Shown here: piece after piece, positions 54,740-63,575 of the stretch
How the letters are laid out: each line of letters starts with the position of its first letter
Numbering within the stretch: the first letter of the stretch is position 1
NCBI GenBank assembly: GCA_964646855.1
Contig: CAZYHQ010000001.1
Coordinates: 3,414-67,413, forward strand
Origin: an uncultured archaeon
GTDB taxonomy: Archaea > Aenigmatarchaeota > Aenigmatarchaeia > CG10238-14 > SCSR01
Direction of reading: 5' to 3'
Length of the DNA: 64,000 bases
Notes under the pieces: generated by a model
Told to the model about the DNA's origin: nothing
Database searches by the model: none
What the model saw: only the letters and a program-made list of their open reading frames with translations
Program-made: the position numbers and the translations under genes

Positions 54740-55618
54740 ATACTTGTTACCGGCGGAACAGGAGTAATTGGTTACAAGCTAGTGAAATATTTCGTTGATA
54801 ACGGCGAGAATGCCAGCTACACATATCTTTCACATGAAACCGAAATCAAAAGTGCAATTGGCCACAAACTTGATATAACAGACACGCAAGCAGTTCTTGA
54901 TTTGATAAATAAAATCAAGCCAAACGTCGTTGTACATACTGCGGCATTGACAAAGGTTGACTTGTGCGAAACAAATCACAAACTTGCGGATGCGATGAAT
55001 ATAGAAGGCACAAGAAACATAGTTGAAGCTTGCAAAGCTACCGGCAGCAAAATAGTGTTGGTTTCTACTTCAGCTGTATTCGACGGCAAAAAATCTGTTT
55101 ACTACGAGGACGACGAAGTCAACCCTCAATATTATTATGCTTTCACCAAAGCAGAAGCAGAAAAAATTGTAAAAACTTCTGGCTTAGAATTTCTGATTCT
55201 TCGAACAGACCAACCTTACTGCTGGACAGAGAAGTGGCAGCATGACAACTCAGTTCTGCGAGTGATTAACAAACTGAAGGCAGGAAAGGTTATGAAAGAC
55301 GTTGCTGACTGGTATAACAACCCAACCCTTGTTGACAATTTTGTTGAAGTTGCATTCGCTTTGATCAAGAAAAATCAAACTGGAATCTATCACGTTTGCG
55401 GTTCTGATTATTTGAACCGTTATGAAATGGCACTGAAAGTTGCGGAAGTTTTTGGATTAAATAAAGATTTAGTTCAGTCGATGAAGTCAATAGAACTTAG
55501 CCTGCCAGCAAAAAGAGTTAATGTGAATTTGAATAATGAAAAGGCTCAGAAAGATTCTGGGGTCAAACTGCTAAATTTTGAAGAAGGACTAAACTCAATG
55601 AAAGTAAAAATTGCTTAA
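54734..55618 (+). CDS. RmlD-like NAD(P)H-dependent nucleotide-sugar 4-ketoreductase
   Basis: ILVTGGTGVIGYKL Rossmann motif and YAFTKAEAEK catalytic region. ~295 aa, the size of dTDP-4-dehydrorhamnose reductases. Confidence 0.6.
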   Translation: MQILVTGGTGVIGYKLVKYFVDNGENASYTYLSHETEIKSAIGHKLDITDTQAVLDLINKIKPNVVVHTAALTKVDLCETNHKLADAMNIEGTRNIVEACKATGSKIVLVSTSAVFDGKKSVYYEDDEVNPQYYYAFTKAEAEKIVKTSGLEFLILRTDQPYCWTEKWQHDNSVLRVINKLKAGKVMKDVADWYNNPTLVDNFVEVAFALIKKNQTGIYHVCGSDYLNRYEMALKVAEVFGLNKDLVQSMKSIELSLPAKRVNVNLNNEKAQKDSGVKLLNFEEGLNSMKVKIA

Positions 55619-57813
55619 TTTGAAACAACTGTCTGAAATGTATCATTGTAGGAAGTCTGATTGACAGTTATGTTTGGTGTGTAGATTGCATTGGTTGTAT
55701 AATCAGTCTCAATTATTACGAAAACTTTTTCCGAGTTGTTAAGCGAAGTGGTCTGCGTCGAGTGTATGTTTGATTGGCCGGTATTGAACAACCATGAAAA
55801 TATCTGGCTACCCAAGTTATTGACTATCTCAAAGACCTGAACTGTGCTGTCTTTGTTTTCCTTCAGCACAAGACCGCCCAACACTTCTATCATGTTCACT
55901 TGGAATTTGTCTGCAAAGCTGTTGTTGAAAGTTCCGTTATATGCTTGAACAGCTGGTGTTCTTTTGCCCTGCGCGCTGTAGTTTACTTCTACTGTAAAGT
56001 TTGTAGTTTCTCTCGGCGCAAGAGTTACCGAAGTGTTGCTAGTTACACCTGCATCAGAAATACGCCAATTTATGTTGGAAACATTGTAAGGCCAGTAGTT
56101 TGTTATGTTAAACCTGAAGACTCTTATGTTTGTTTCATTTTTCTTGTAGCTTTCAAAGTTTTCAATTCTTATTGCGTTGAGAACAAATGATTCGTTAAAG
56201 CGATCTGAAATGGCCCCAGAGACTATTGTAACATTAACATCTTTGTTACCGTCAGTAGTGTAGTTTATACTTTGCGTTACTGTGCTTGATGCATCGGTTC
56301 CCAAGCTGCCTGTGCTTCCAGAAAACAGCTGGTCATCGCTTCTTATGTTATAAGTTACCGTCAATGCCGACCAATAATTCTTGATGTTGAACTGCATGTT
56401 TCTATTGTTTTCTCCAACAGAACTTGTGTTGTAATCTTCAATTTTTGTTCCTTTTAGTTCAAACTTTACAAACTTTGTATCGTTTCCTTCGGGTGAAGTT
56501 ACGTTGCAATTTAGGTATTTTGCTCCGGGCGAACCGTATGTTCTGTTGAGGTATTCGGTTCTCCTGCCGAAAGCTGATACAGAAAACGAACTGTTTGACT
56601 TGGCACCGTTATCGCAAGCCCAGTCCATGTTGCTTACAGTAGAATTCAGGCCGTTGAGTATTGTCATGTTGAAATTTGCCTTGTCTCCATTCTGGCTGAT
56701 GAATGATAGCGACCCTATGGTAATTCCAAACTTGTTTGTAATGTTTTCGAAATCATAAGAACCAGGATTAGACCGTGCCGTCACATTTACTTTGTAACTT
56801 CCGCCAGATGAGTAATTATGTTCGACTATAACTAACACTGATTCGTTGGTCGATACATTAAATGCATTTGTAGAAATAATCTGATTGCCGTCTCCAAAAT
56901 CTGCAGTCCAGTTTACATCTGTAATTGTAGAATTCTTTTCGTTTGCAAGATAAAACTGGAAAGTTCTGTTTCTGTCAGCAGAATAAAGATTTTCTTGTCT
57001 GCTAACATCTACGCCAGCATCCACCGTTACTATCTGCGACGGCGCGTGCACAGGGTAACTGCCGTAAACGAATTTTGTTGTATTGGCACTGTCTCTCACT
57101 ATTTTCAGAATGTTGCCTATCGGATTGTATGAGTATAACCAAGTGTTGCCTGCGATAGAAACATTTACCAGCCTGTCCAGAAAGTCATAAGCCATTCTGT
57201 AAGTTCGATTGTTTGCGGTGTCATTAATCAGGACAATGTTGCCCACAGAATCATACGTGTAATTAATATTTTGAATCGCACCAGTTTTTATTTGCTGCAA
57301 TCTTGAATTTGTTTCATTGTAAGTCTGTTCAGTAATCCTGGTATTTGCATAAGTCCTGTTCAGCATTTTGTCGAACGCATCGTAGAAAGTATTGGTTATG
57401 TAGTTAGTAATCTTGTTTACCTTGCTCTGGTTGTTGTAGTAGTATTCTATTTCTTGTCCTGTTAAATTTATTTCAAGTACTCTATCCATAGAGTCATAGA
57501 CATATCTTTTCTCAAATTGTATACCATCGATAATCCTGATTTCCGTTATCAGTCTCAGTTTGTCATTGTATTCGTACTTTACTGTGTCATTGCCGAATGT
57601 AACGTTTGTCAGAGTTCCTTGGTGTTGCTCGTCGTAAGTGTAGTTTATGCTAATGCCTGTAGAATTTTTAGTTACAATTCTGTTTAACGCATCGTAAGTT
57701 ATGTTCACTTGGTTCGTCGGATTGTCGTAAGTTAAATCTTGTGTGGCAGCAATCGCCAACTGCGGGATTAATGCAAAAACGATCATTGCAAATAAAAACA
57801 ATTTAGTCTTCAT
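55615..57813 (-). CDS. secreted YD-repeat protein with Ig/PKD-like domains, extremely rich in N-x-S/T sequons
   Basis: Signal peptide MKTKLFLFAMIVFALIPQLAIAA. N-terminal YD repeats (YTYDALNRIV, YTYDEQHQG, YEYNDKLRL, YVYDSMDRV, YTYDSVGNI), then beta-rich repeats with more than 40 N-x-S/T sites. Start at the ATG at 57813. Confidence 0.7.
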   Translation of the reverse strand: MKTKLFLFAMIVFALIPQLAIAATQDLTYDNPTNQVNITYDALNRIVTKNSTGISINYTYDEQHQGTLTNVTFGNDTVKYEYNDKLRLITEIRIIDGIQFEKRYVYDSMDRVLEINLTGQEIEYYYNNQSKVNKITNYITNTFYDAFDKMLNRTYANTRITEQTYNETNSRLQQIKTGAIQNINYTYDSVGNIVLINDTANNRTYRMAYDFLDRLVNVSIAGNTWLYSYNPIGNILKIVRDSANTTKFVYGSYPVHAPSQIVTVDAGVDVSRQENLYSADRNRTFQFYLANEKNSTITDVNWTADFGDGNQIISTNAFNVSTNESVLVIVEHNYSSGGSYKVNVTARSNPGSYDFENITNKFGITIGSLSFISQNGDKANFNMTILNGLNSTVSNMDWACDNGAKSNSSFSVSAFGRRTEYLNRTYGSPGAKYLNCNVTSPEGNDTKFVKFELKGTKIEDYNTSSVGENNRNMQFNIKNYWSALTVTYNIRSDDQLFSGSTGSLGTDASSTVTQSINYTTDGNKDVNVTIVSGAISDRFNESFVLNAIRIENFESYKKNETNIRVFRFNITNYWPYNVSNINWRISDAGVTSNTSVTLAPRETTNFTVEVNYSAQGKRTPAVQAYNGTFNNSFADKFQVNMIEVLGGLVLKENKDSTVQVFEIVNNLGSQIFSWLFNTGQSNIHSTQTTSLNNSEKVFVIIETDYTTNAIYTPNITVNQTSYNDTFQTVVSN

Positions 57814-58027
57814 AGAAACCTCCTGAGACAATTCTCATCAGCTCTTTGAACGGAGTGTAAATTTTCGTGCTGGCAGAATCGTTGCGAGAAATCTCTGACA
57901 GTCTTAACGAAAGAATTCGGAAATTATTTTTGGAAAATATTTTTATTTCAGCTAGATAATTTTGATTGTCCTTTGTTAATTTTTTTACTATAATTATTTT
58001 ATTTTCTAAAAGCGACTCTTGTTTCAT
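57803..58027 (-). pseudogene. orphan ORF carrying a fragment of the RHS core (…RNDSASTKIYTPFKELMRIV…)
   Basis: The 74-aa ORF has a C-terminal half that duplicates 20 aa found in the large RHS protein. Confidence 0.35.
57836..57883. repeat. 48-bp direct repeat (46/48 identical to 59607-59654) derived from the RHS core-coding region
   Basis: catcagctctttgaacgg[a/c]gtgtaaattttcgtgctggc[a/t]gaatcgtt. Encodes ...STKIYTPFKELMRIV... on the minus strand in both copies. Confidence 0.85.
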
Positions 58028-58590
58028 TGTTCAGAAACCTCCCTTGTTTGGTTAAGAACAATAGTTTTACCAGTGTCAGGATCACATACTAAGAAGTCTT
58101 TGTTTTGATTGTACCAACCTTTCCAAGCATTAAGAATCTGGTCTTGGTTAGTTTCGTTGACAGAGCCAAGATATACACCGGTAATTGCATTAAGTATAAC
58201 GTTTATAGTTTTTCCAACAGTGTTCTTGCCTATAACACCGTATTCTTCAAAAGATCCTCTAGGGAGAATTATCAACGCATTGCTACTATCTGTTCGGTTA
58301 AGATTATCTATCAGAATTGGTATTGAATTATCAGAAAGTAAAATCAATTCCGCAACACTCCTGTAAGATAGAGCAGCATCATAAGATGTTATATCGTCAA
58401 TACGTTTCTGAATTTCTTCTTTTGAGAGGCTGTAACTACAAGATGGCGTCGATTCGTAGAAATCTCGTACGTCTCTTAATGTTTGTTCGTCTACAGTACT
58501 TTTTTCTATCAAAAACAAAATAATTACAAGAAAAATAGCTACAAGAGTTACAAAAACAAATTTTATGTTTAAATAATTCCTAATTCTCAA
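58024..58590 (-). CDS. small membrane-anchored protein, candidate cognate immunity/partner of the RHS metallopeptidase toxin
   Basis: 188 aa with an N-terminal signal anchor. Its (TTG) start overlaps the RHS stop in a TTGA arrangement, so translation is coupled. Confidence 0.5.
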   Translation of the reverse strand: MRIRNYLNIKFVFVTLVAIFLVIILFLIEKSTVDEQTLRDVRDFYESTPSCSYSLSKEEIQKRIDDITSYDAALSYRSVAELILLSDNSIPILIDNLNRTDSSNALIILPRGSFEEYGVIGKNTVGKTINVILNAITGVYLGSVNETNQDQILNAWKGWYNQNKDFLVCDPDTGKTIVLNQTREVSEQ

Positions 58591-61500
58591 TTAAGATCAC
58601 TTTGTGTTCTTGGTTCAATGAGATGAGTCTCTTTTCCAGTCAGCCAAGTATCAATAAAAGGATCTAGTGGTCTAAACCACCATCTGACCGCACCAACAAA
58701 ACTGGTCCATGTATCTTTAGGTTCGTCTTTAAAATACGGATCAATGATTGCATTTGTGTTTTCTTGTTTTGCGTGGTAAAATTTTCCCGGGTTCATAATG
58801 TTCTCTGCATCAAGGCGGTCGTCCAAACCAAAGAAATGACCGACCTCATGTACGTATTGCTCTCGATCTGTAGTCCATTCACCAGTCCTACCATAGTTAT
58901 TATCTAATGGAAGATTACCAAAAGGAACGATAGATTTATCTCTCTTAGAAATACTAAAGATTTCTACGGCATTCTCATACAAGGGTATGTAATCAGGCTT
59001 ACTACTTACATATGCAACCTTAACATCAAATCTTACATTATAAGTCTGCCCCCCGCTTTGATAAGTAAATCCTTGATTCCAAACGAAATTTATATCTTCT
59101 TCCATTTGCTTTGCAAGATCTGCATTAGCAGCATCACCATAAATGTAGATTGTGGTGCTAACCACGATTTCTTTATTTTCGTCGTCAATTACAAGTTTTG
59201 CATCTCTTCCTGTCGGGTCGATATATTTTATCGGATTGTTTAACGAATATGAAAATCTATTCAAACTCTGGGAATTATATATATTTGGTACATTTACATC
59301 AGGTTGATGCCATCTGCCTATACACGGATTGTAATATCTGGCACCATAATAAAATTGACAACTAGAATCTTTGAATTGCCCAGTGTATAGTTTATTTTCA
59401 GCACTTCCCCCACCCAGCAACTCCCCGAACGGACTATAGAACGTGTTCTCAACAACATTCCCATTCTGATTTGTTATTAAACTAGTGCTTCCCAAATGAT
59501 CCGGATGATAGTAATATTTCGAGCCGTCTGGATTGACACGTGCGACTAAAGTACCGTCTTGGTAAATGTAAGTGAAGTCAAATGTTCCGCTGCTATTAAC
59601 TATCCGCATCAGCTCTTTGAACGGCGTGTAAATTTTCGTGCTGGCTGAATCGTTTCTCTCGATTTTTATGCGGATACCAAACGGATCGTATGTGTAATTT
59701 TCGATAATTGGTGAACTGACAGTAGAGCCATTGCGAATTATTATCAACTGATTTAGCGCGTCATACTCGCGATAAAATCCGTCACCAGTTACTAAATTGC
59801 CACCACCCTGTTGCTGCTGGCGAATTAAATTTCCAGCAAGATTGTAAGTGTAAGTCCAGTTGCCGAGATCAGGATCGATCAATGCGGTGCGCCTGCCGAG
59901 TGAATCGTAAGTAAAACTAAAAATGTTTCCTAACGAATCAGTAATTTTTACGAGATTATCACTAGTGTCGTACTCATAGCTAGTATTGTAAATGTCTGAC
60001 TCGAAATTCCAGCCGAGAACAGGATCGTTATTGTATTCGAGAACATTTTTAATACGATCGTATGTATCAAGAACGTAAGCCTTGCGATGTCCATTTTCAT
60101 CGTATGCTGTAATCGTGCGATGGTCGAAATTAATTGTCTTGTTGCTGCTATCCGGATTCAAAACAAAATTAACTCTGCCTAGAGTATCGTAAGTGTAATT
60201 AGTAGCATTAACAGTTGAAGAAGGAGTTGACAATGAAACAGAAAACGTATCGAAATATGGATTGCTCTCAGAAATAACTCTGCCCAATCCGTCATAATAA
60301 AAGTTTTTGACAATCTGCCTGTTGTTGTCTGCCGGACGCTTTAGCTGAATGAAGTTTCCAAATCCATCATAGTAAAAATATGTATCTGAAGTTTTGTTCG
60401 CTGAAGTTCGCTGTGAAATCTTAATATATTCAGGAGTATTACCATCGAAAAAGTAAGTGTAATTCTTAGTAGGCAACTCGTATGAATCAAACGGTTGCAC
60501 TTCCTTAATTATTCTGCCGAAAATGTCGTAGTAGAAATAATTAGTGATTTCGTTCTGCTTCTGCCAAATCAGATTGCCGGTACCAATGTCATAAGCGTAA
60601 TCAGCAGTGTGGAACAAAGCATTAGTGATTCTGTCTGGGTAAGTGAACGTAGTGTCGCGCAACCCGTATGTGTAAGTCGTCTCAGCACCGAGCGGATTGG
60701 TCTCGCGGATTACATTGCCGAGAGAATCGTATGCAAACTTTGTCTTTTGATTGCCTCCAGTATCCAGCCAGTTGTCTATTTCTGTCAAGTCTCCGCGAAT
60801 GGGAGCAGCAGAGTAAGGAAGATTATCGTAAGAATATTTTGTCTCTATAACCTTTGTAGAGTTGTCAGAAGCAAACAGCAAGTACCAGCTAAGTCTGTCA
60901 ACAATCCAGCCAGAAGTGTTTAATGCGTATGCATACCGCTCGTATTTTTCATCGCCGCTGATGTTAACATCGCCGAAGAAATTTCTGTGCAAAACATTTC
61001 CATAACTGTCGTAAACGTAAGAAACATTTGTGATGTTTGGTGCAATCGGTGAACCGTCGTAGAAATAATTTGTCTGAGACAGCAGGAAAGTTTTGTGATA
61101 CAGATTGCCTCCAACGGAGATGTTTGTATAATTAAAGAAATTTTCAGCGCGAGAAAACAAACTGCGGGAAGAATTGTAAATTTCAGTTTTGTATTCCTTG
61201 CCTTTGCGGGCATCGTCTTGATGGAAATAATGGACAATTAAACTTTTGTCAGGAAGAGTTTCGTTTGTCAAGGCAAACCCGCGGAATTCGGAATTGTCGT
61301 AATCGTAACTTCCGCCGGAGTAGTTGTATGTATAGTTTGCAATTACAGCAAACCTGCCGGGCATCGAGTTGTTTTGCAAAACATTCCGTACGACCCAAAT
61401 ATTGAATCCTAAATCGGACAGCGAGTCGTTGCCTGTGTTGTTGAATTGAGTTGACTTGTTGTACTGGACAGAAACGGAGTCTATTGTAATTGTCCCGCCG

Positions 61501-63575
61501 TATTCAGTTGTTATCTTTTTCAGCAGGAATGGAGTGGTAATGTTTTTCTCCCATGTCCAGAACTGGGTAGTAGTCTCGTTCTTGTAGGCTACCACAAGGT
61601 CTGCAAACCCGTCGCCATTGACATCAGCAAGCCTCCTGCCTTTATTCTGGCCATGACTCAGAAGAATTTCATTTACATTCCAAGAGTCATTTTGCAACCA
61701 GCCAGTGCCGTTGTTTATCCAAACATGTTTTTCTGTATTTGTGCTGTTTTCCATCCCAACCACAAGGTCTACCAACCCATCCCCGTTTATTTCCAAAAGT
61801 CTGAGACCTGTATCGCCATTATCTACAAAGTTCATCGGAATATCATTCCAAACAGAGGAATTTTCCCAACCATTGCCGTTATTCAGCCAAGCACGTTTCG
61901 TCTGACCACCGCCCCATTCTCTGTAGGATTCGATTATATCTGGAAGACCGTCGCCATTGACGTCTTCAACTCTTACTCCCTTGTCTGTGTTGCCATCCAT
62001 GAAGTAAGTCGGCGGCAGCCAAGTTGCGGTCGCGTCTGTCCAACCTTTTCCTGTGTTCAGCCATGCCGATTTGTTTTTTGGGCTCTCGAAAGTGTTTTCC
62101 CTAGACATCAAAATGTCCACTCTGCCGTCTCCGTTGAAGTCGGTGAACAGCACACCGAAATCAGGGATTCCCGTAGAACTTCTAACAAAATCTATGGGTG
62201 GCTTCCAGATGCTAGATACATCAATCCATCCGTTGCCGTTGTTCATCCACGCTTTTCTCTCTGAAGGGTAAGTCGCATCGGCACGAAGTATGTCAACAAA
62301 CCCGTCGCCGTTGAAATCCACAAGCCTGAAACCGTAATCTTCCTGCAGAGGACCGAGGAACTCAATCGGCGGAGCCCATACAGAACTCGCGTCAGTCCAA
62401 TTGTTCGCACCGTTGTTGAGCCAAGCCTTTTTTGCAATATTGCCGCCACTGAAGTCCCTGCCCTGTATCATATCGACGTAACCGTCCCTGTTCAGATCCA
62501 CCAGACGCACGCCATCATCTTCAATGGTGTCTGAAAACTCGACTGGTGCAATCCAGACTGTCGTGCGGTTTCTGTAACCAATCTCTGGATAATGATATGC
62601 AAAGGAAACTTGGTGCAGCAAAGATGTACCATCTGAACCAAAATATTTTATTTTTGCAAGCGAGAACGACGACTGTTCCGCGCTCAAATTTGCATATTCG
62701 AATCTGTAATTTCTTACGGCCAACCCGTTAGCCCAAACGACTATCTCCGAAAGTCTCCTGCTTTGGTTTACGTAATGACCCTGTTCGATTACCAACCTTC
62801 TAGCGCCTGTAGCCTCGTAACTGAAATCTACCTGCCTCTGTTGGTCGTTGTTGTAGACAATCTGCGAAGGATAAGTAACATTCCTGTCTTCTGGATTCGA
62901 GTTTTCAAGATACGAGTAAATTATCTTGTTGTCGTGAGTGTCCTTGACTTCGTCCAAGTACCAGCGGAGCGAATAGTTTCTTGCCACAGTAGACTCCAAC
63001 TCGGAATCATTGTTGTAACCAAACCTGTATCGCATGCCGTCTTTCGTTGTGACAACCCAATAAACGCTGTTGTTATTTGGAGCGCCTGTCAGGTTTTGTA
63101 CTTTCAAAAACGATTCCATTTTTGTGTGGTAAAGACCATCAGATGAGTCGTAAACCAAATCGTAAGAAGCATCGTTGAAAATTAATTTGAATTCGTCGTC
63201 GCTAACATTGCTGGGAGTGGAGTTTACGTCTCTGTATACGTAGTTCTGTGTGATTGACCAACCGGAACCCAGCAAACCGCTTTGTTTTGCAGACTGGCTG
63301 TTATAGGACAGTGCAACCGACGGTTGCAGACCGTTCGTGCCAGACGGCGTTTCAATTGAATACGTATAAGTCGCCGCACCTGGGAACAAATTAGTTGCGT
63401 AACTTCCGTACAATTTTAATTTCGGATGCTCGGGAATCTGCGGTTCATGCAGGTAGGGTTTGTAAGGATCTGCGGCTGATGCATGTTGCACATTAAAAAG
63501 GAAAATCGTGAAAAATAAAATTGCGAAAACAACCTCGAAATTTTTTTGGGGTAAAATTTTCTGAATAAATTTCAC
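58587..63575 (-). CDS. Tc-toxin/teneurin-like RHS-repeat polymorphic toxin with C-terminal zinc-metallopeptidase domain
   Basis: Signal peptide (…FNVQHASA-ADP); six FG-GAP/VCBS-like motifs (DLNRDGYVDM, DFNGDGFVDIL, DFNGDGRVDIL, DVNGDGLPDII, INGDGLVDLV, DVNGDGFADLV); many YD repeats; RHS core (YYHPDHLGSTSL...YTGQ...YYGARYYNPCIGRWHQPD...YIDPTGR); then a ~230-aa tip with HEVGHFFGLDD (HExxHxxGxxD). Confidence 0.85.
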   Translation of the reverse strand: MKFIQKILPQKNFEVVFAILFFTIFLFNVQHASAADPYKPYLHEPQIPEHPKLKLYGSYATNLFPGAATYTYSIETPSGTNGLQPSVALSYNSQSAKQSGLLGSGWSITQNYVYRDVNSTPSNVSDDEFKLIFNDASYDLVYDSSDGLYHTKMESFLKVQNLTGAPNNNSVYWVVTTKDGMRYRFGYNNDSELESTVARNYSLRWYLDEVKDTHDNKIIYSYLENSNPEDRNVTYPSQIVYNNDQQRQVDFSYEATGARRLVIEQGHYVNQSRRLSEIVVWANGLAVRNYRFEYANLSAEQSSFSLAKIKYFGSDGTSLLHQVSFAYHYPEIGYRNRTTVWIAPVEFSDTIEDDGVRLVDLNRDGYVDMIQGRDFSGGNIAKKAWLNNGANNWTDASSVWAPPIEFLGPLQEDYGFRLVDFNGDGFVDILRADATYPSERKAWMNNGNGWIDVSSIWKPPIDFVRSSTGIPDFGVLFTDFNGDGRVDILMSRENTFESPKNKSAWLNTGKGWTDATATWLPPTYFMDGNTDKGVRVEDVNGDGLPDIIESYREWGGGQTKRAWLNNGNGWENSSVWNDIPMNFVDNGDTGLRLLEINGDGLVDLVVGMENSTNTEKHVWINNGTGWLQNDSWNVNEILLSHGQNKGRRLADVNGDGFADLVVAYKNETTTQFWTWEKNITTPFLLKKITTEYGGTITIDSVSVQYNKSTQFNNTGNDSLSDLGFNIWVVRNVLQNNSMPGRFAVIANYTYNYSGGSYDYDNSEFRGFALTNETLPDKSLIVHYFHQDDARKGKEYKTEIYNSSRSLFSRAENFFNYTNISVGGNLYHKTFLLSQTNYFYDGSPIAPNITNVSYVYDSYGNVLHRNFFGDVNISGDEKYERYAYALNTSGWIVDRLSWYLLFASDNSTKVIETKYSYDNLPYSAAPIRGDLTEIDNWLDTGGNQKTKFAYDSLGNVIRETNPLGAETTYTYGLRDTTFTYPDRITNALFHTADYAYDIGTGNLIWQKQNEITNYFYYDIFGRIIKEVQPFDSYELPTKNYTYFFDGNTPEYIKISQRTSANKTSDTYFYYDGFGNFIQLKRPADNNRQIVKNFYYDGLGRVISESNPYFDTFSVSLSTPSSTVNATNYTYDTLGRVNFVLNPDSSNKTINFDHRTITAYDENGHRKAYVLDTYDRIKNVLEYNNDPVLGWNFESDIYNTSYEYDTSDNLVKITDSLGNIFSFTYDSLGRRTALIDPDLGNWTYTYNLAGNLIRQQQQGGGNLVTGDGFYREYDALNQLIIIRNGSTVSSPIIENYTYDPFGIRIKIERNDSASTKIYTPFKELMRIVNSSGTFDFTYIYQDGTLVARVNPDGSKYYYHPDHLGSTSLITNQNGNVVENTFYSPFGELLGGGSAENKLYTGQFKDSSCQFYYGARYYNPCIGRWHQPDVNVPNIYNSQSLNRFSYSLNNPIKYIDPTGRDAKLVIDDENKEIVVSTTIYIYGDAANADLAKQMEEDINFVWNQGFTYQSGGQTYNVRFDVKVAYVSSKPDYIPLYENAVEIFSISKRDKSIVPFGNLPLDNNYGRTGEWTTDREQYVHEVGHFFGLDDRLDAENIMNPGKFYHAKQENTNAIIDPYFKDEPKDTWTSFVGAVRWWFRPLDPFIDTWLTGKETHLIEPRTQSDLN
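59607..59654. repeat. 48-bp direct repeat, copy inside the RHS gene (partner of 57836-57883)
   Basis: See the partner repeat. Confidence 0.85.

What the first reader, a model, noticed from the sequence alone, without database searches (positions are those of the whole stretch)
58024..58590. Translationally coupled small ORF downstream of the toxin tip, a candidate immunity or partner protein
The 188-aa ORF starts on TTG embedded in the toxin stop (TTGA overlap), the arrangement typical of toxin-immunity pairs in polymorphic toxin loci. Unlike most immunity proteins it has an N-terminal membrane anchor. That would fit neutralisation of a peptidase acting outside the cytoplasm, or a pseudopeptidoglycan/S-layer-directed activity. 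It has no recognisable motif, so it may be a new immunity family.
Basis: inference. Interest (0 to 1): 0.6.

Follow-up and report, generated by a model that had tools for sequence, protein, structure and literature searches.

The report
Membrane-tethered partner gene of archaeal RHS toxin
A small, real and very rare gene sits directly behind the toxic tip of a giant secreted RHS toxin in an archaeon and encodes a protein tethered to the outside of the cell membrane; it is probably a self-protection (immunity) protein, but its only distant relatives sit behind a different kind of toxin tip, so a general toxin-accessory role is not excluded.

Summary
A 188-codon ORF lies at 58024-58590 on the minus strand. 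Its TTG start overlaps the TGA stop of a 1662-aa Sec-exported RHS toxin, whose 205-aa tip carries HEVGHFFGLDD. The ORF has one N-terminal anchor helix and matches no Pfam, NCBIfam, PADLOC, PHROG or PDB family.

It is a real gene. dN/dS against its closest homolog is about 0.23, and the AlphaFold model is a compact helical domain (pLDDT 78).

Only four family members turned up in about 15 billion proteins, all just downstream of RHS tips and all tethered by a TM helix or lipobox. Each starts on a non-ATG codon in the same NTGA overlap.

Immunity is the leading reading (about 0.45):
- The closest homolog follows the same tip.
- Tip and ORF share a low GC3 (0.29 and 0.25, against 0.47 for the shell).
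- An RHS-derived repeat brackets the tip-plus-ORF segment.

Against it, the two distant homologs (25-29% identity) follow a different, glycine-rich tip, with multi-pass membrane proteins in the immunity position. A tip-independent accessory, tether or exclusion role therefore remains plausible (about 0.3).

Verdict: a new member of a known kind, of moderate interest.

The parts
58024..58590 (-). ORF188: 188-aa membrane-tethered extracytoplasmic protein. It has a TTG start, two invariant cysteines (C51, C169) and three N-glycosylation sequons whose positions are kept in the closest homolog.
   Evidence: ORF; homologs; alignment; AlphaFold model pLDDT 77.8; hydropathy, sequons; dN/dS about 0.23
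58504..58560 (-). N-terminal signal-anchor helix of ORF188 (residues 11-29), preceded by R2, R4 and K10.
   Evidence: Homologs carry either an equivalent TM helix (P0002) or a lipobox (LVAC in P0003, LAAC in P0005).
58587..58590 (-). TTGA junction: the TTG start of ORF188 overlaps the TGA stop of the RHS toxin.
   Evidence: The same NTGA junction with a non-ATG start occurs in all four family members.
58587..63575 (-). 1662-aa Sec-exported RHS toxin of the fused TcB/TcC type. It comprises a signal peptide (residues 1-34), SpvB, FG-GAP propeller, TcdB_toxin_midN, RHS/YD repeats and the RHS-associated core, which ends ...NNPIKYIDPTGR.
   Evidence: PDB Rhs/teneurin/YenC2 matches all end at residue 1456-1459.
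58590..59204 (-). 205-aa C-terminal toxin tip (residues 1458-1662). It carries HEVGHFFGLDD followed by ENIM (a possible Met-turn), contains no cysteine and no N-glycosylation sequon, and belongs to an orphan family.
   Evidence: only sub-threshold zincin hits; no homologs found beyond the L001 fragment; 45% identity to the L001 fragment; AlphaFold pLDDT 43, uninformative
57803..58027 (-). ORF74: a 74-codon ORF whose ATG overlaps the ORF188 stop (ATGA). Its 3' third is a copy of an internal RHS segment. It is probably a recombination scar, and it is absent from L001.
57828..57883 (.). Downstream copy of a direct repeat, 56 nt and 91% identical to 59599-59654.
   Evidence: family D5; alignment
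59599..59654 (.). Upstream copy of the repeat, inside the RHS gene (aa about 1307-1326, RNDSASTKIYTPFKELMRIV). Together with the downstream copy it brackets RHS tail + tip + ORF188, the low-GC3 segment.
55615..57813 (-). ORF732: a secreted YD-repeat + PKD-domain protein. Its start is ATG 57813, with a GGAGGT Shine-Dalgarno sequence. It is the conserved downstream neighbour of ORF188 in both the window and L001.

Best explanation
ORF188 is a genuine gene of the RHS-tip cassette. It is translated by coupling to the end of the toxin gene and inserted in the membrane by its N-terminal signal-anchor helix. It displays a roughly 155-residue, mainly alpha-helical, probably disulfide-stabilised domain on the outer face of the archaeal membrane.

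Most likely it is a surface-located immunity protein. It would bind the metzincin-like tip, which the RHS shell releases after autoproteolysis, and so keep the tip from acting on the envelope of the producer and its kin. This would work like the membrane-anchored, outward-facing immunity protein TipC of Gram-positive bacteria.

Shown:
- The gene is real and under purifying selection.
- The start/stop coupling is conserved across the family.
- Predicted membrane tethering (TM helix or lipobox) is kept in every family member.
- All family members lie next to RHS tips.
- The ORF shares the tip's composition.

Inferred:
- That it binds the tip.
- That the tip is an active peptidase.
- That the tip acts outside the cytoplasm.
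For: - Adjacency and a 4-nt start/stop overlap with the tip occur in both loci that carry this tip: the window (TTGA) and L001 (GTGA).
- No other candidate immunity gene lies between the tip and the next conserved gene. ORF74 is a scar that is absent from L001.
- GC3 is 0.29 for the tip and 0.25 for ORF188, against 0.47 for the RHS shell and 0.42 for ORF732. The low-GC3 segment is bracketed by a 56-nt, 91% identical direct repeat of RHS sequence. This is the signature of a tip + immunity cassette swapped by recombination.
- The family is tiny and found only in RHS-tip loci.
- Conserved extracytoplasmic tethering, two invariant cysteines and conserved sequons fit a protein that works outside the membrane.
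- The domain is compact and helical, with no catalytic motif and only weak HEAT/ARM-like resemblance. That is the binder type already recorded among immunity proteins (PMC3482391 lists HEAT and ankyrin repeat immunity proteins).
- There are precedents for outward-facing, membrane-bound immunity: TipC (PMC6193138), the secreted or TM immunity proteins of LD-peptidase tips, and the lipoprotein Imm65 (PMC3482391).
Against: - Two of the four family members (P0003 and P0005, 25-29% identity) sit in loci whose RHS tip is glycine-rich and lacks HExxH. They are coupled to multi-pass membrane proteins rather than to the tip. The family therefore does not co-vary with the tip type.
- Metallopeptidase-tipped RHS toxins described so far have no assigned immunity family (Tox-MPTase1-5 in PMC3482391), so a missing immunity gene would not be unusual.
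- The tip is encapsulated in the RHS shell, and it may act in the target's cytoplasm, where an outward-facing protein could not reach it.
- The peptidase assignment itself rests only on a motif.
- No interface prediction or experiment was possible.
Confidence: 0.45

Rival explanations
1. A tip-independent accessory of Sec-exported RHS toxins. In this reading, the membrane-tethered surface protein recognises the conserved RHS tail/core rather than the variable tip. It could hold the exported toxin on the producer's surface, help its maturation, or exclude re-entry of kin toxin (a self-exclusion factor). This is comparable in logic to the MafA lipoprotein proposed to anchor MafB toxins.
For: - The only element shared by all four loci is the last roughly 200 residues of the RHS shell plus the core. 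The window RHS residues 1259-1456 are 35% identical to the L003 mini-RHS. The tips differ.
- In L002 and L003 the multi-pass membrane proteins already occupy the immunity position.
- The low-GC3 cassette in the window also includes the RHS tail (GC3 0.35).
- Divergence of the small protein (25-29% between subfamilies, 53% between L002 and L003) parallels that of the RHS tail (35% and 52%).
- PMC3482391 lists no immunity family for Tox-MPTase1-5 RHS tips and describes MafA as an anchoring lipoprotein.
Against: - L002 and L003 are related loci from one sample, so they count as one independent observation.
- Polymorphic-toxin loci often carry extra or multi-component immunity genes. The EsxX glycine-zipper toxin, for example, has both ExiAB and the polytopic ExiCD (PMC12744356).
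- One immunity fold can serve several toxin types (PMC3482391).
- Known anchors such as MafA are encoded upstream of the toxin gene and are not part of the swapped cassette.
Confidence: 0.3
2. A passenger or orphan gene. In this reading, ORF188 is an envelope protein unrelated to this toxin, for example an orphan immunity gene against some other surface-acting toxin, or a small surface glycoprotein. It would sit in RHS loci only because such loci accumulate cassettes.
For: - No function could be assigned by sequence or fold.
- The family is associated with two different tip types.
- The locus shows a recombination scar.
Against: - All four members keep the same tight NTGA coupling to the upstream gene of an RHS operon.
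- The tip-ORF188-YD/PKD synteny is conserved between two organisms of different G+C content (0.41 and 0.33).
- The gene is under purifying selection.
Confidence: 0.15
3. Not a gene: a chance ORF in AT-rich sequence behind the toxin gene.
For: - The start codon is non-ATG.
- No canonical GGAGG Shine-Dalgarno sequence lies directly upstream.
- There is no database family.
Against: - Homologs at 51% and 25-29% identity with conserved cysteines and topology.
- dN/dS of about 0.23.
- A confident AlphaFold model.
- A 188-codon ORF in 33% G+C DNA.
Confidence: 0.02

Closest known systems
TipC, the immunity protein of the T7SS toxin TelC (Streptococcus intermedius; PMC6193138)
   Same: It has an N-terminal transmembrane segment with the toxin-inhibitory domain facing the outside of a single-membrane cell. 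It is encoded next to the toxin, and it protects against toxin arriving from sister cells.
   Different: - TipC has an alpha/beta crescent fold, whereas ORF188 is modelled as mainly helical, and the PDB Foldseek search gave no significant match to any chain.
- Its partner is an LXG/T7SS lipid II phosphatase, not a Sec-exported RHS tip.
- It is bacterial, not archaeal.
- No sequence similarity was found.
Non-cytoplasmic immunity proteins of polymorphic toxins: secreted or TM immunity proteins of Tox-LD-peptidase, and the lipoprotein Imm65 of Tox-JAB-1 (Zhang et al. 2012, PMC3482391)
   Same: These are immunity proteins placed where a surface-acting peptidase tip works. They are anchored by a TM helix or a lipobox, exactly the two anchors seen in the ORF188 family.
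   Different: - ORF188 and its homologs hit no Pfam family at all at E up to 0.1-1, the Pfam immunity families included.
- The partner tips differ. That survey assigned no immunity family to the Tox-MPTase1-5 RHS tips.
MafA lipoprotein of Neisseria MafB toxin loci (as discussed in PMC3482391)
   Same: [quoted passage not shown] It is thought to interact with a constant part of the toxin rather than with the variable tip.
   Different: - MafA is encoded upstream, is not polymorphic and is restricted to Neisseria.
- ORF188 is downstream of the tip and shares the tip's atypical composition.
Rhs / TcB-TcC cocoon toxins (Tc toxin BC components, T6SS Rhs effectors such as Tse5, teneurin-like proteins)
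   Same: The upstream gene has SpvB, FG-GAP propeller, TcdB_midN, YD repeats and the RHS core with the DPxG end. This is the 'TcdB/TcaC' export class that PMC3482391 lists for Euryarchaeota as well as for bacterial phyla.
   Different: - The tip family is unknown.
- No ORF in the window is long enough for a TcA-like partner. The largest ORFs are 1662, 895, 738 and 731 aa. DNA upstream of the toxin gene is not covered.
- The known glycine-zipper Rhs toxins pair with small membrane immunity proteins. That is the arrangement seen in L002 and L003, not in the window.

Membership tests
Polymorphic-toxin immunity protein (functional class) | Encoded immediately downstream of the toxin tip, on the same strand and in the same operon | tested here: met
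   TTGA overlap in the window; GTGA overlap in L001.
Polymorphic-toxin immunity protein (functional class) | Co-varies with the toxin tip family across loci | tested here: inconclusive
   Two of the four homologs follow the same tip (window, L001). The other two follow a glycine-rich tip with multi-pass membrane proteins in between. Only three samples are available.
Polymorphic-toxin immunity protein (functional class) | Part of a swappable tip + immunity cassette distinct from the constant part of the toxin | tested here: met
   GC3 is 0.29 for the tip and 0.25 for the ORF, against 0.47 for the shell. An RHS-derived direct repeat brackets the segment.
Polymorphic-toxin immunity protein (functional class) | Binds and neutralises the cognate toxin | not testable with these tools
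   No multimer prediction tool was available. The tip model alone is unreliable (pLDDT 43).
Polymorphic-toxin immunity protein (functional class) | Located in the compartment where the toxin acts | not testable with these tools
   An extracytoplasmic location is predicted for ORF188. The tip's site of action is unknown.
Described immunity / defence families (Pfam families, PADLOC, NCBIfam) | Sequence match above the family threshold | tested here: not met
   No Pfam, NCBIfam, PADLOC or PHROG match above noise for any family member. No PDB sequence match for the family profile.
TipC family | N-terminal TM segment with an outward-facing C-terminal domain | tested here: met
   Hydropathy and the positive-inside rule. 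This is a prediction only.
TipC family | Crescent alpha/beta fold (three helices and a seven-stranded sheet), plus sequence homology | tested here: not met
   The model is helical with one small hairpin. The Foldseek PDB search found no match at E < 1.
HEAT/ARM repeat immunity proteins | Recognisable tandem alpha-helical repeats | tested here: not met
   The best PDB Foldseek hits are HEAT, armadillo and alphaRep proteins, but at E 1.5-5 and TM 0.2-0.28. There is no Pfam HEAT hit.
MafA-like toxin-anchoring lipoprotein | Conserved with the constant part of the toxin, independently of the tip | tested here: inconclusive
   The family is found with two tip types that share only the RHS tail, but this rests on four loci.
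RHS / TcB-TcC toxin (upstream gene) | SpvB, FG-GAP propeller, TcdB_midN, YD repeats and the RHS-associated core ending in DPxG | tested here: met
   The core ends ...NNPIKYIDPTGR at residue 1457.
Zincin / metzincin metallopeptidase (toxin tip) | HExxH helix with a third ligand and a Met-turn; family-level sequence match; zincin fold | tested here: inconclusive
   HEVGHFFGLDD and ENIM are present in the sequence. NIM is kept in L001. Pfam matches are all below cut-off. The AlphaFold model is unreliable.

The most novel reading that the evidence does not exclude
ORF188 founds a new family of outward-facing, membrane-tethered immunity proteins, the first assigned to a metallopeptidase-tipped RHS toxin and to an archaeal polymorphic toxin acting on the cell surface. 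That would imply that archaea wage protease-based, envelope-directed warfare on their kin. An alternative, equally novel reading is that the family is a tip-independent self-exclusion or docking factor for Sec-exported RHS toxins.
Probability: 0.4. Interest if true: 0.6.

Novelty: new member of a known kind. Interest (0 to 1): 0.42.

Why it matters
Antagonism between archaea is poorly understood. RHS toxins with metallopeptidase tips have no assigned immunity partner in the reference survey (PMC3482391).

An immunity protein facing the outside of the membrane would indicate that this tip acts on the archaeal envelope rather than in the cytoplasm. It would also provide a handle, in the form of a binding partner, for finding the tip's target.

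If the protein instead serves the RHS tail whatever the tip, it would be a new accessory component of Sec-exported RHS toxins. Either way, the pair can be tested directly with two small recombinant proteins.

Tried and rejected
Searches that came back empty:
- Homolog searches for ORF188 in genome contigs, metagenome contigs, viral contigs and plasmids found nothing.
- Homolog searches for the toxin tip also found nothing. These covered the word-indexed protein search, genome contigs, metagenome contigs, PDB, plasmids and phages.
- tblastn of the locus proteins against the whole window found no paralog of ORF188 and no second RHS locus.
- A literature search for the two SRA run accessions found nothing.
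- Makarova et al. 2019 (PMC6509191) is not held.

Hits or models rejected:
- P0004, an 803-aa repeat protein from the exhaustive search (E 4.7e-5), is not a homolog. hhalign gives 0.7% probability, and its Pfam hits are scattered and inconsistent across unrelated families.
- The Foldseek searches of the ORF188 model against PDB and BFVD found nothing significant.
- The single-sequence AlphaFold model of the tip has pLDDT 43. It was not used for fold search.

Tools not available:

Other dead ends:
- The look-up of ORF732 in other assemblies gave only an identical contig that breaks inside the ORF74 repeat, so there is no strain variant to compare.
- A linker-fused tip-ORF188 pseudo-complex prediction was considered and dropped. 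The tool returns no contacts or PAE, and the tip has no alignment.

Full report
**1. Observation**

The ORF is real and at the stated coordinates, on the minus strand: 58024-58590, 188 aa, TTG start. On that strand the 1662-aa upstream protein ends ...GAT CTT AAT TGA, and the ORF begins TTG AGA ATT AGG. Start and stop therefore share the four bases TTGA.

The protein has no internal methionine. Its only other in-frame start codons fall inside the hydrophobic segment, so the overlapping TTG is the only start that keeps the conserved N-terminus.

Hydropathy shows one strongly hydrophobic stretch at residues 11-29 (mean 3.09). Three basic residues precede it and acidic residues follow it. This is a signal anchor that puts residues 30-188 outside the cytoplasm.

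The identical protein is in the collection from an NCBI source, so it was called there with the same TTG start. The same is true of the three other genes of the operon.

**2. The surrounding operon**

The upstream gene (58587-63575, minus strand) encodes a Sec-type signal peptide followed by:
- SpvB;
- FG-GAP propeller;
- TcdB_toxin_midN;
- RHS/YD repeats;
- the RHS-associated core.

Matches to solved Rhs, teneurin-like and YenC2 structures all stop at residue 1456-1459, directly after ...NNPIKYIDPTGR. This defines a 205-residue tip (58590-59204).

The tip carries HEVGHFFGLDD, followed 9 residues later by NIM. From general knowledge of metzincins, HExxHxxGxxD plus a Met-turn is the snapalysin-type arrangement. 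Here, however, only sub-threshold zincin matches were obtained (Zincin_1 E 0.007, M10 0.03, M54 0.14). The single-sequence AlphaFold model is unreliable (pLDDT 43). The peptidase assignment is therefore motif-level only.

Downstream of ORF188 lie two ORFs:
- A 74-codon ORF (57803-58027), whose ATG overlaps the ORF188 stop.
- A 732-aa secreted YD-repeat/PKD protein (55615-57813), with its own GGAGGT ribosome-binding site.

All four genes abut or overlap, so they form one operon.

The window belongs to an archaeon: it encodes a family B DNA polymerase, Hel308, and AglM- and Agl23-like proteins. The operon lies at the edge of a large surface-glycan biosynthesis cluster.

**3. Is it a gene, and who are its relatives?**

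Three searches found only four family members in all:
- the word-indexed search of 5.8 billion protein clusters;
- the exhaustive HMMER scan of 1.84 billion representatives;
- a profile search.

| Member | Source | Identity to ORF188 |
|---|---|---|
| P0001 | the window | - |
| P0002 | 1-kb Logan contig L001 | 51% |
| P0003 | L002 | 25-29% |
| P0005 | L003 (same sample as L002) | 25-29% |

Nothing turned up in GTDB genomes, JGI metagenome contigs, IMG/VR or plasmids. A fifth hit (P0004) was rejected, since hhalign gives it 0.7% probability.

Features conserved across the family:
- Two invariant cysteines (C51, C169) and an N-terminal tether. The tether is a TM helix in P0001 and P0002, and a lipobox (LVAC or LAAC) in P0003 and P0005.
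- The three N-glycosylation sequons of ORF188 hold their positions in P0002.
- Window against L001 gives pN 0.31 and pS 0.67, so dN/dS is about 0.23.

AlphaFold2 on the four-sequence alignment gives a confident compact domain (pLDDT 77.8, pTM 0.71). It consists of five helices after the anchor, plus a small C-terminal hairpin. Foldseek against the PDB and BFVD finds nothing significant. The least bad hits are HEAT, armadillo and alphaRep proteins at E > 1.

No Pfam, NCBIfam, PADLOC, PHROG or PDB sequence match exists. So this is a real, selected and very rare protein family with no described relatives.

**4. Context of the relatives**

*L001.* This contig repeats the window's arrangement:
- The upstream ORF ends ...NINAIIDPY...IDWLFTGK...SDLA. 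This is 45% identical to the end of the window's tip.
- The homolog starts at a GTG overlapping that stop (GTGA).
- Its own stop abuts the ATG of a protein beginning ...TTQDLTYDSPTNQ, the homolog of ORF732.

*L002 and L003.* These differ:
- A 427-434-aa protein carries a signal peptide plus only the last 200 or so residues of an RHS shell and the core. It is 35% identical to window RHS residues 1259-1456.
- That protein ends in a glycine-rich tip without HExxH.
- One or two multi-pass membrane proteins follow.
- Only then comes the ORF188 homolog, as a lipoprotein.
- Every component is 52-53% identical between L002 and L003, so these two loci count as one independent observation.

*Shared junction.* All four family members start on a non-ATG codon in the same NTGA junction with the upstream gene:

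| Locus | Junction |
|---|---|
| Window | TTGA |
| L001 | GTGA |
| L002 | TTGA |
| L003 | GTGA |

. In L002 and L003, however, the upstream partner is the membrane protein, not the tip.

**5. Cassette signature in the window**

| Segment | GC3 |
|---|---|
| RHS shell | 0.47 |
| RHS tail (aa 1333-1457) | 0.35 |
| Toxin tip | 0.29 |
| ORF188 | 0.25 |
| ORF732 | 0.42 |

. A 56-nt segment of the RHS gene (59599-59654, encoding RNDSASTKIYTPFKELMRIV) recurs at 91% identity at 57828-57883, inside ORF74. Direct repeats of RHS sequence therefore bracket RHS tail + tip + ORF188.

This is the pattern expected when a tip/immunity cassette is swapped into a resident RHS gene by recombination (general model in PMC3482391). 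ORF74 is best read as the scar. It is absent from L001.

**6. Mechanism**

*Leading reading (confidence about 0.45): outward-facing immunity.* ORF188 would be made in step with the toxin and anchored in the membrane. Its helical ectodomain would bind the tip once the tip leaves the RHS shell at the cell surface, so protecting producer and kin.

This is how TipC works for the T7SS toxin TelC (N-terminal TM, inhibitory domain outside; PMC6193138). It also matches the rare non-cytoplasmic immunity proteins noted by Zhang et al. for surface-acting peptidase tips: secreted or TM partners of LD-peptidase, and the lipoprotein Imm65 (PMC3482391).

*Main rival (about 0.3): a tip-independent RHS accessory.* This could be a tether, a maturation aid or a self-exclusion factor. 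It is suggested by three points:
- Only the RHS tail is common to all four loci.
- The multi-pass proteins fill the immunity slot in L002 and L003.
- No immunity family is listed for Tox-MPTase1-5 RHS tips (PMC3482391).

Two precedents soften that objection:
- A single glycine-zipper toxin can need several immunity families, including polytopic ones (EsxX with ExiAB and ExiCD, PMC12744356).
- One immunity scaffold can serve several toxin types (PMC3482391).

*Minor readings.* A passenger or orphan role is given about 0.15. 'Not a gene' is effectively excluded.

**7. Comparison and novelty**

The system works like a polymorphic-toxin tip/immunity pair with a surface-located immunity protein. 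By every test available here, ORF188 is not a member of any described immunity family. Its fold has no significant match among solved or viral structures. The AlphaFold-database libraries could not be searched.

It is best filed as a new member of a known kind. It would interest workers on archaeal antagonism and on RHS toxins:
- The tip type has no known immunity partner.
- The protein's topology predicts an envelope target.

The key claim of binding and neutralisation is untested, and the co-occurrence evidence rests on three samples. Interest is 0.42.

Noticed in passing
window 57803-58027 (ORF74), with repeat copies at 57828-57883 and 59599-59654: A 74-codon ORF lies between ORF188 and the YD/PKD gene. 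Its 3' third is a 91% identical copy of an internal RHS segment (aa RNDSASTKIYTPFKELMRIV). It is absent from the syntenic contig L001, and an independent assembly (L004) breaks exactly inside it. It looks like the scar of a tip-swapping recombination.
   Followed up: partly
window 58587-58590; L001 235-238; L002 3933-3936; L003 3109-3112: All four genes of the family begin on TTG or GTG in an identical NTGA overlap with the stop of the upstream gene. Obligatory coupling with a weak start codon is thus a conserved trait of the family, whatever the upstream gene is.
   Followed up: yes
window 55615-57813, 58590-59204 and 59205-63575: N-glycosylation sequons are about twofold over-represented in the RHS shell (44 against 21 expected) and in ORF732 (44 against 18.5). 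The 205-aa toxin tip has none (1.5 expected). This fits glycosylated surface-exposed shell and partner proteins with an unglycosylated cargo, although for the tip alone the difference is not statistically strong.
   Followed up: partly
L002 2184-3936 and L003 799-3112: These are 'mini-RHS' proteins of 427-434 aa: a signal peptide, then only the last 200 or so residues of an RHS shell plus the core, then a glycine-rich (glycine-zipper-like) tip. Conserved multi-pass membrane proteins follow. They look like standalone, exportable tip cassettes with membrane immunity proteins, as for Tse5- or EsxX-type toxins.
   Followed up: partly
window 55615-57813 and L001 850-1005: A secreted protein with N-terminal YD repeats and several PKD/Ig-like domains is the conserved downstream neighbour of the tip-ORF188 pair in two organisms. 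Its role (adhesin, or receptor-binding partner of the RHS toxin) is unknown.
   Followed up: no
window about 26000-55600: A roughly 30-kb surface-glycan / N-glycosylation gene cluster directly abuts the RHS operon. It includes AglM, three Agl23-like membrane proteins, GT1/GT4 glycosyltransferases, a DegT aminotransferase, many sugar epimerases/dehydratases, and an rmlD-like gene. The rmlD-like gene converges on ORF732 and overlaps it by 4 nt.
   Followed up: partly
window 58590-59204: The toxin tip is itself an orphan. No relative was found in any collection except the 78-residue fragment on L001. Its last 55 or so residues (...NAIIDPY...IDxWLTGK...SDL) are the best conserved part and lie beyond the putative peptidase core.
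   Followed up: partly
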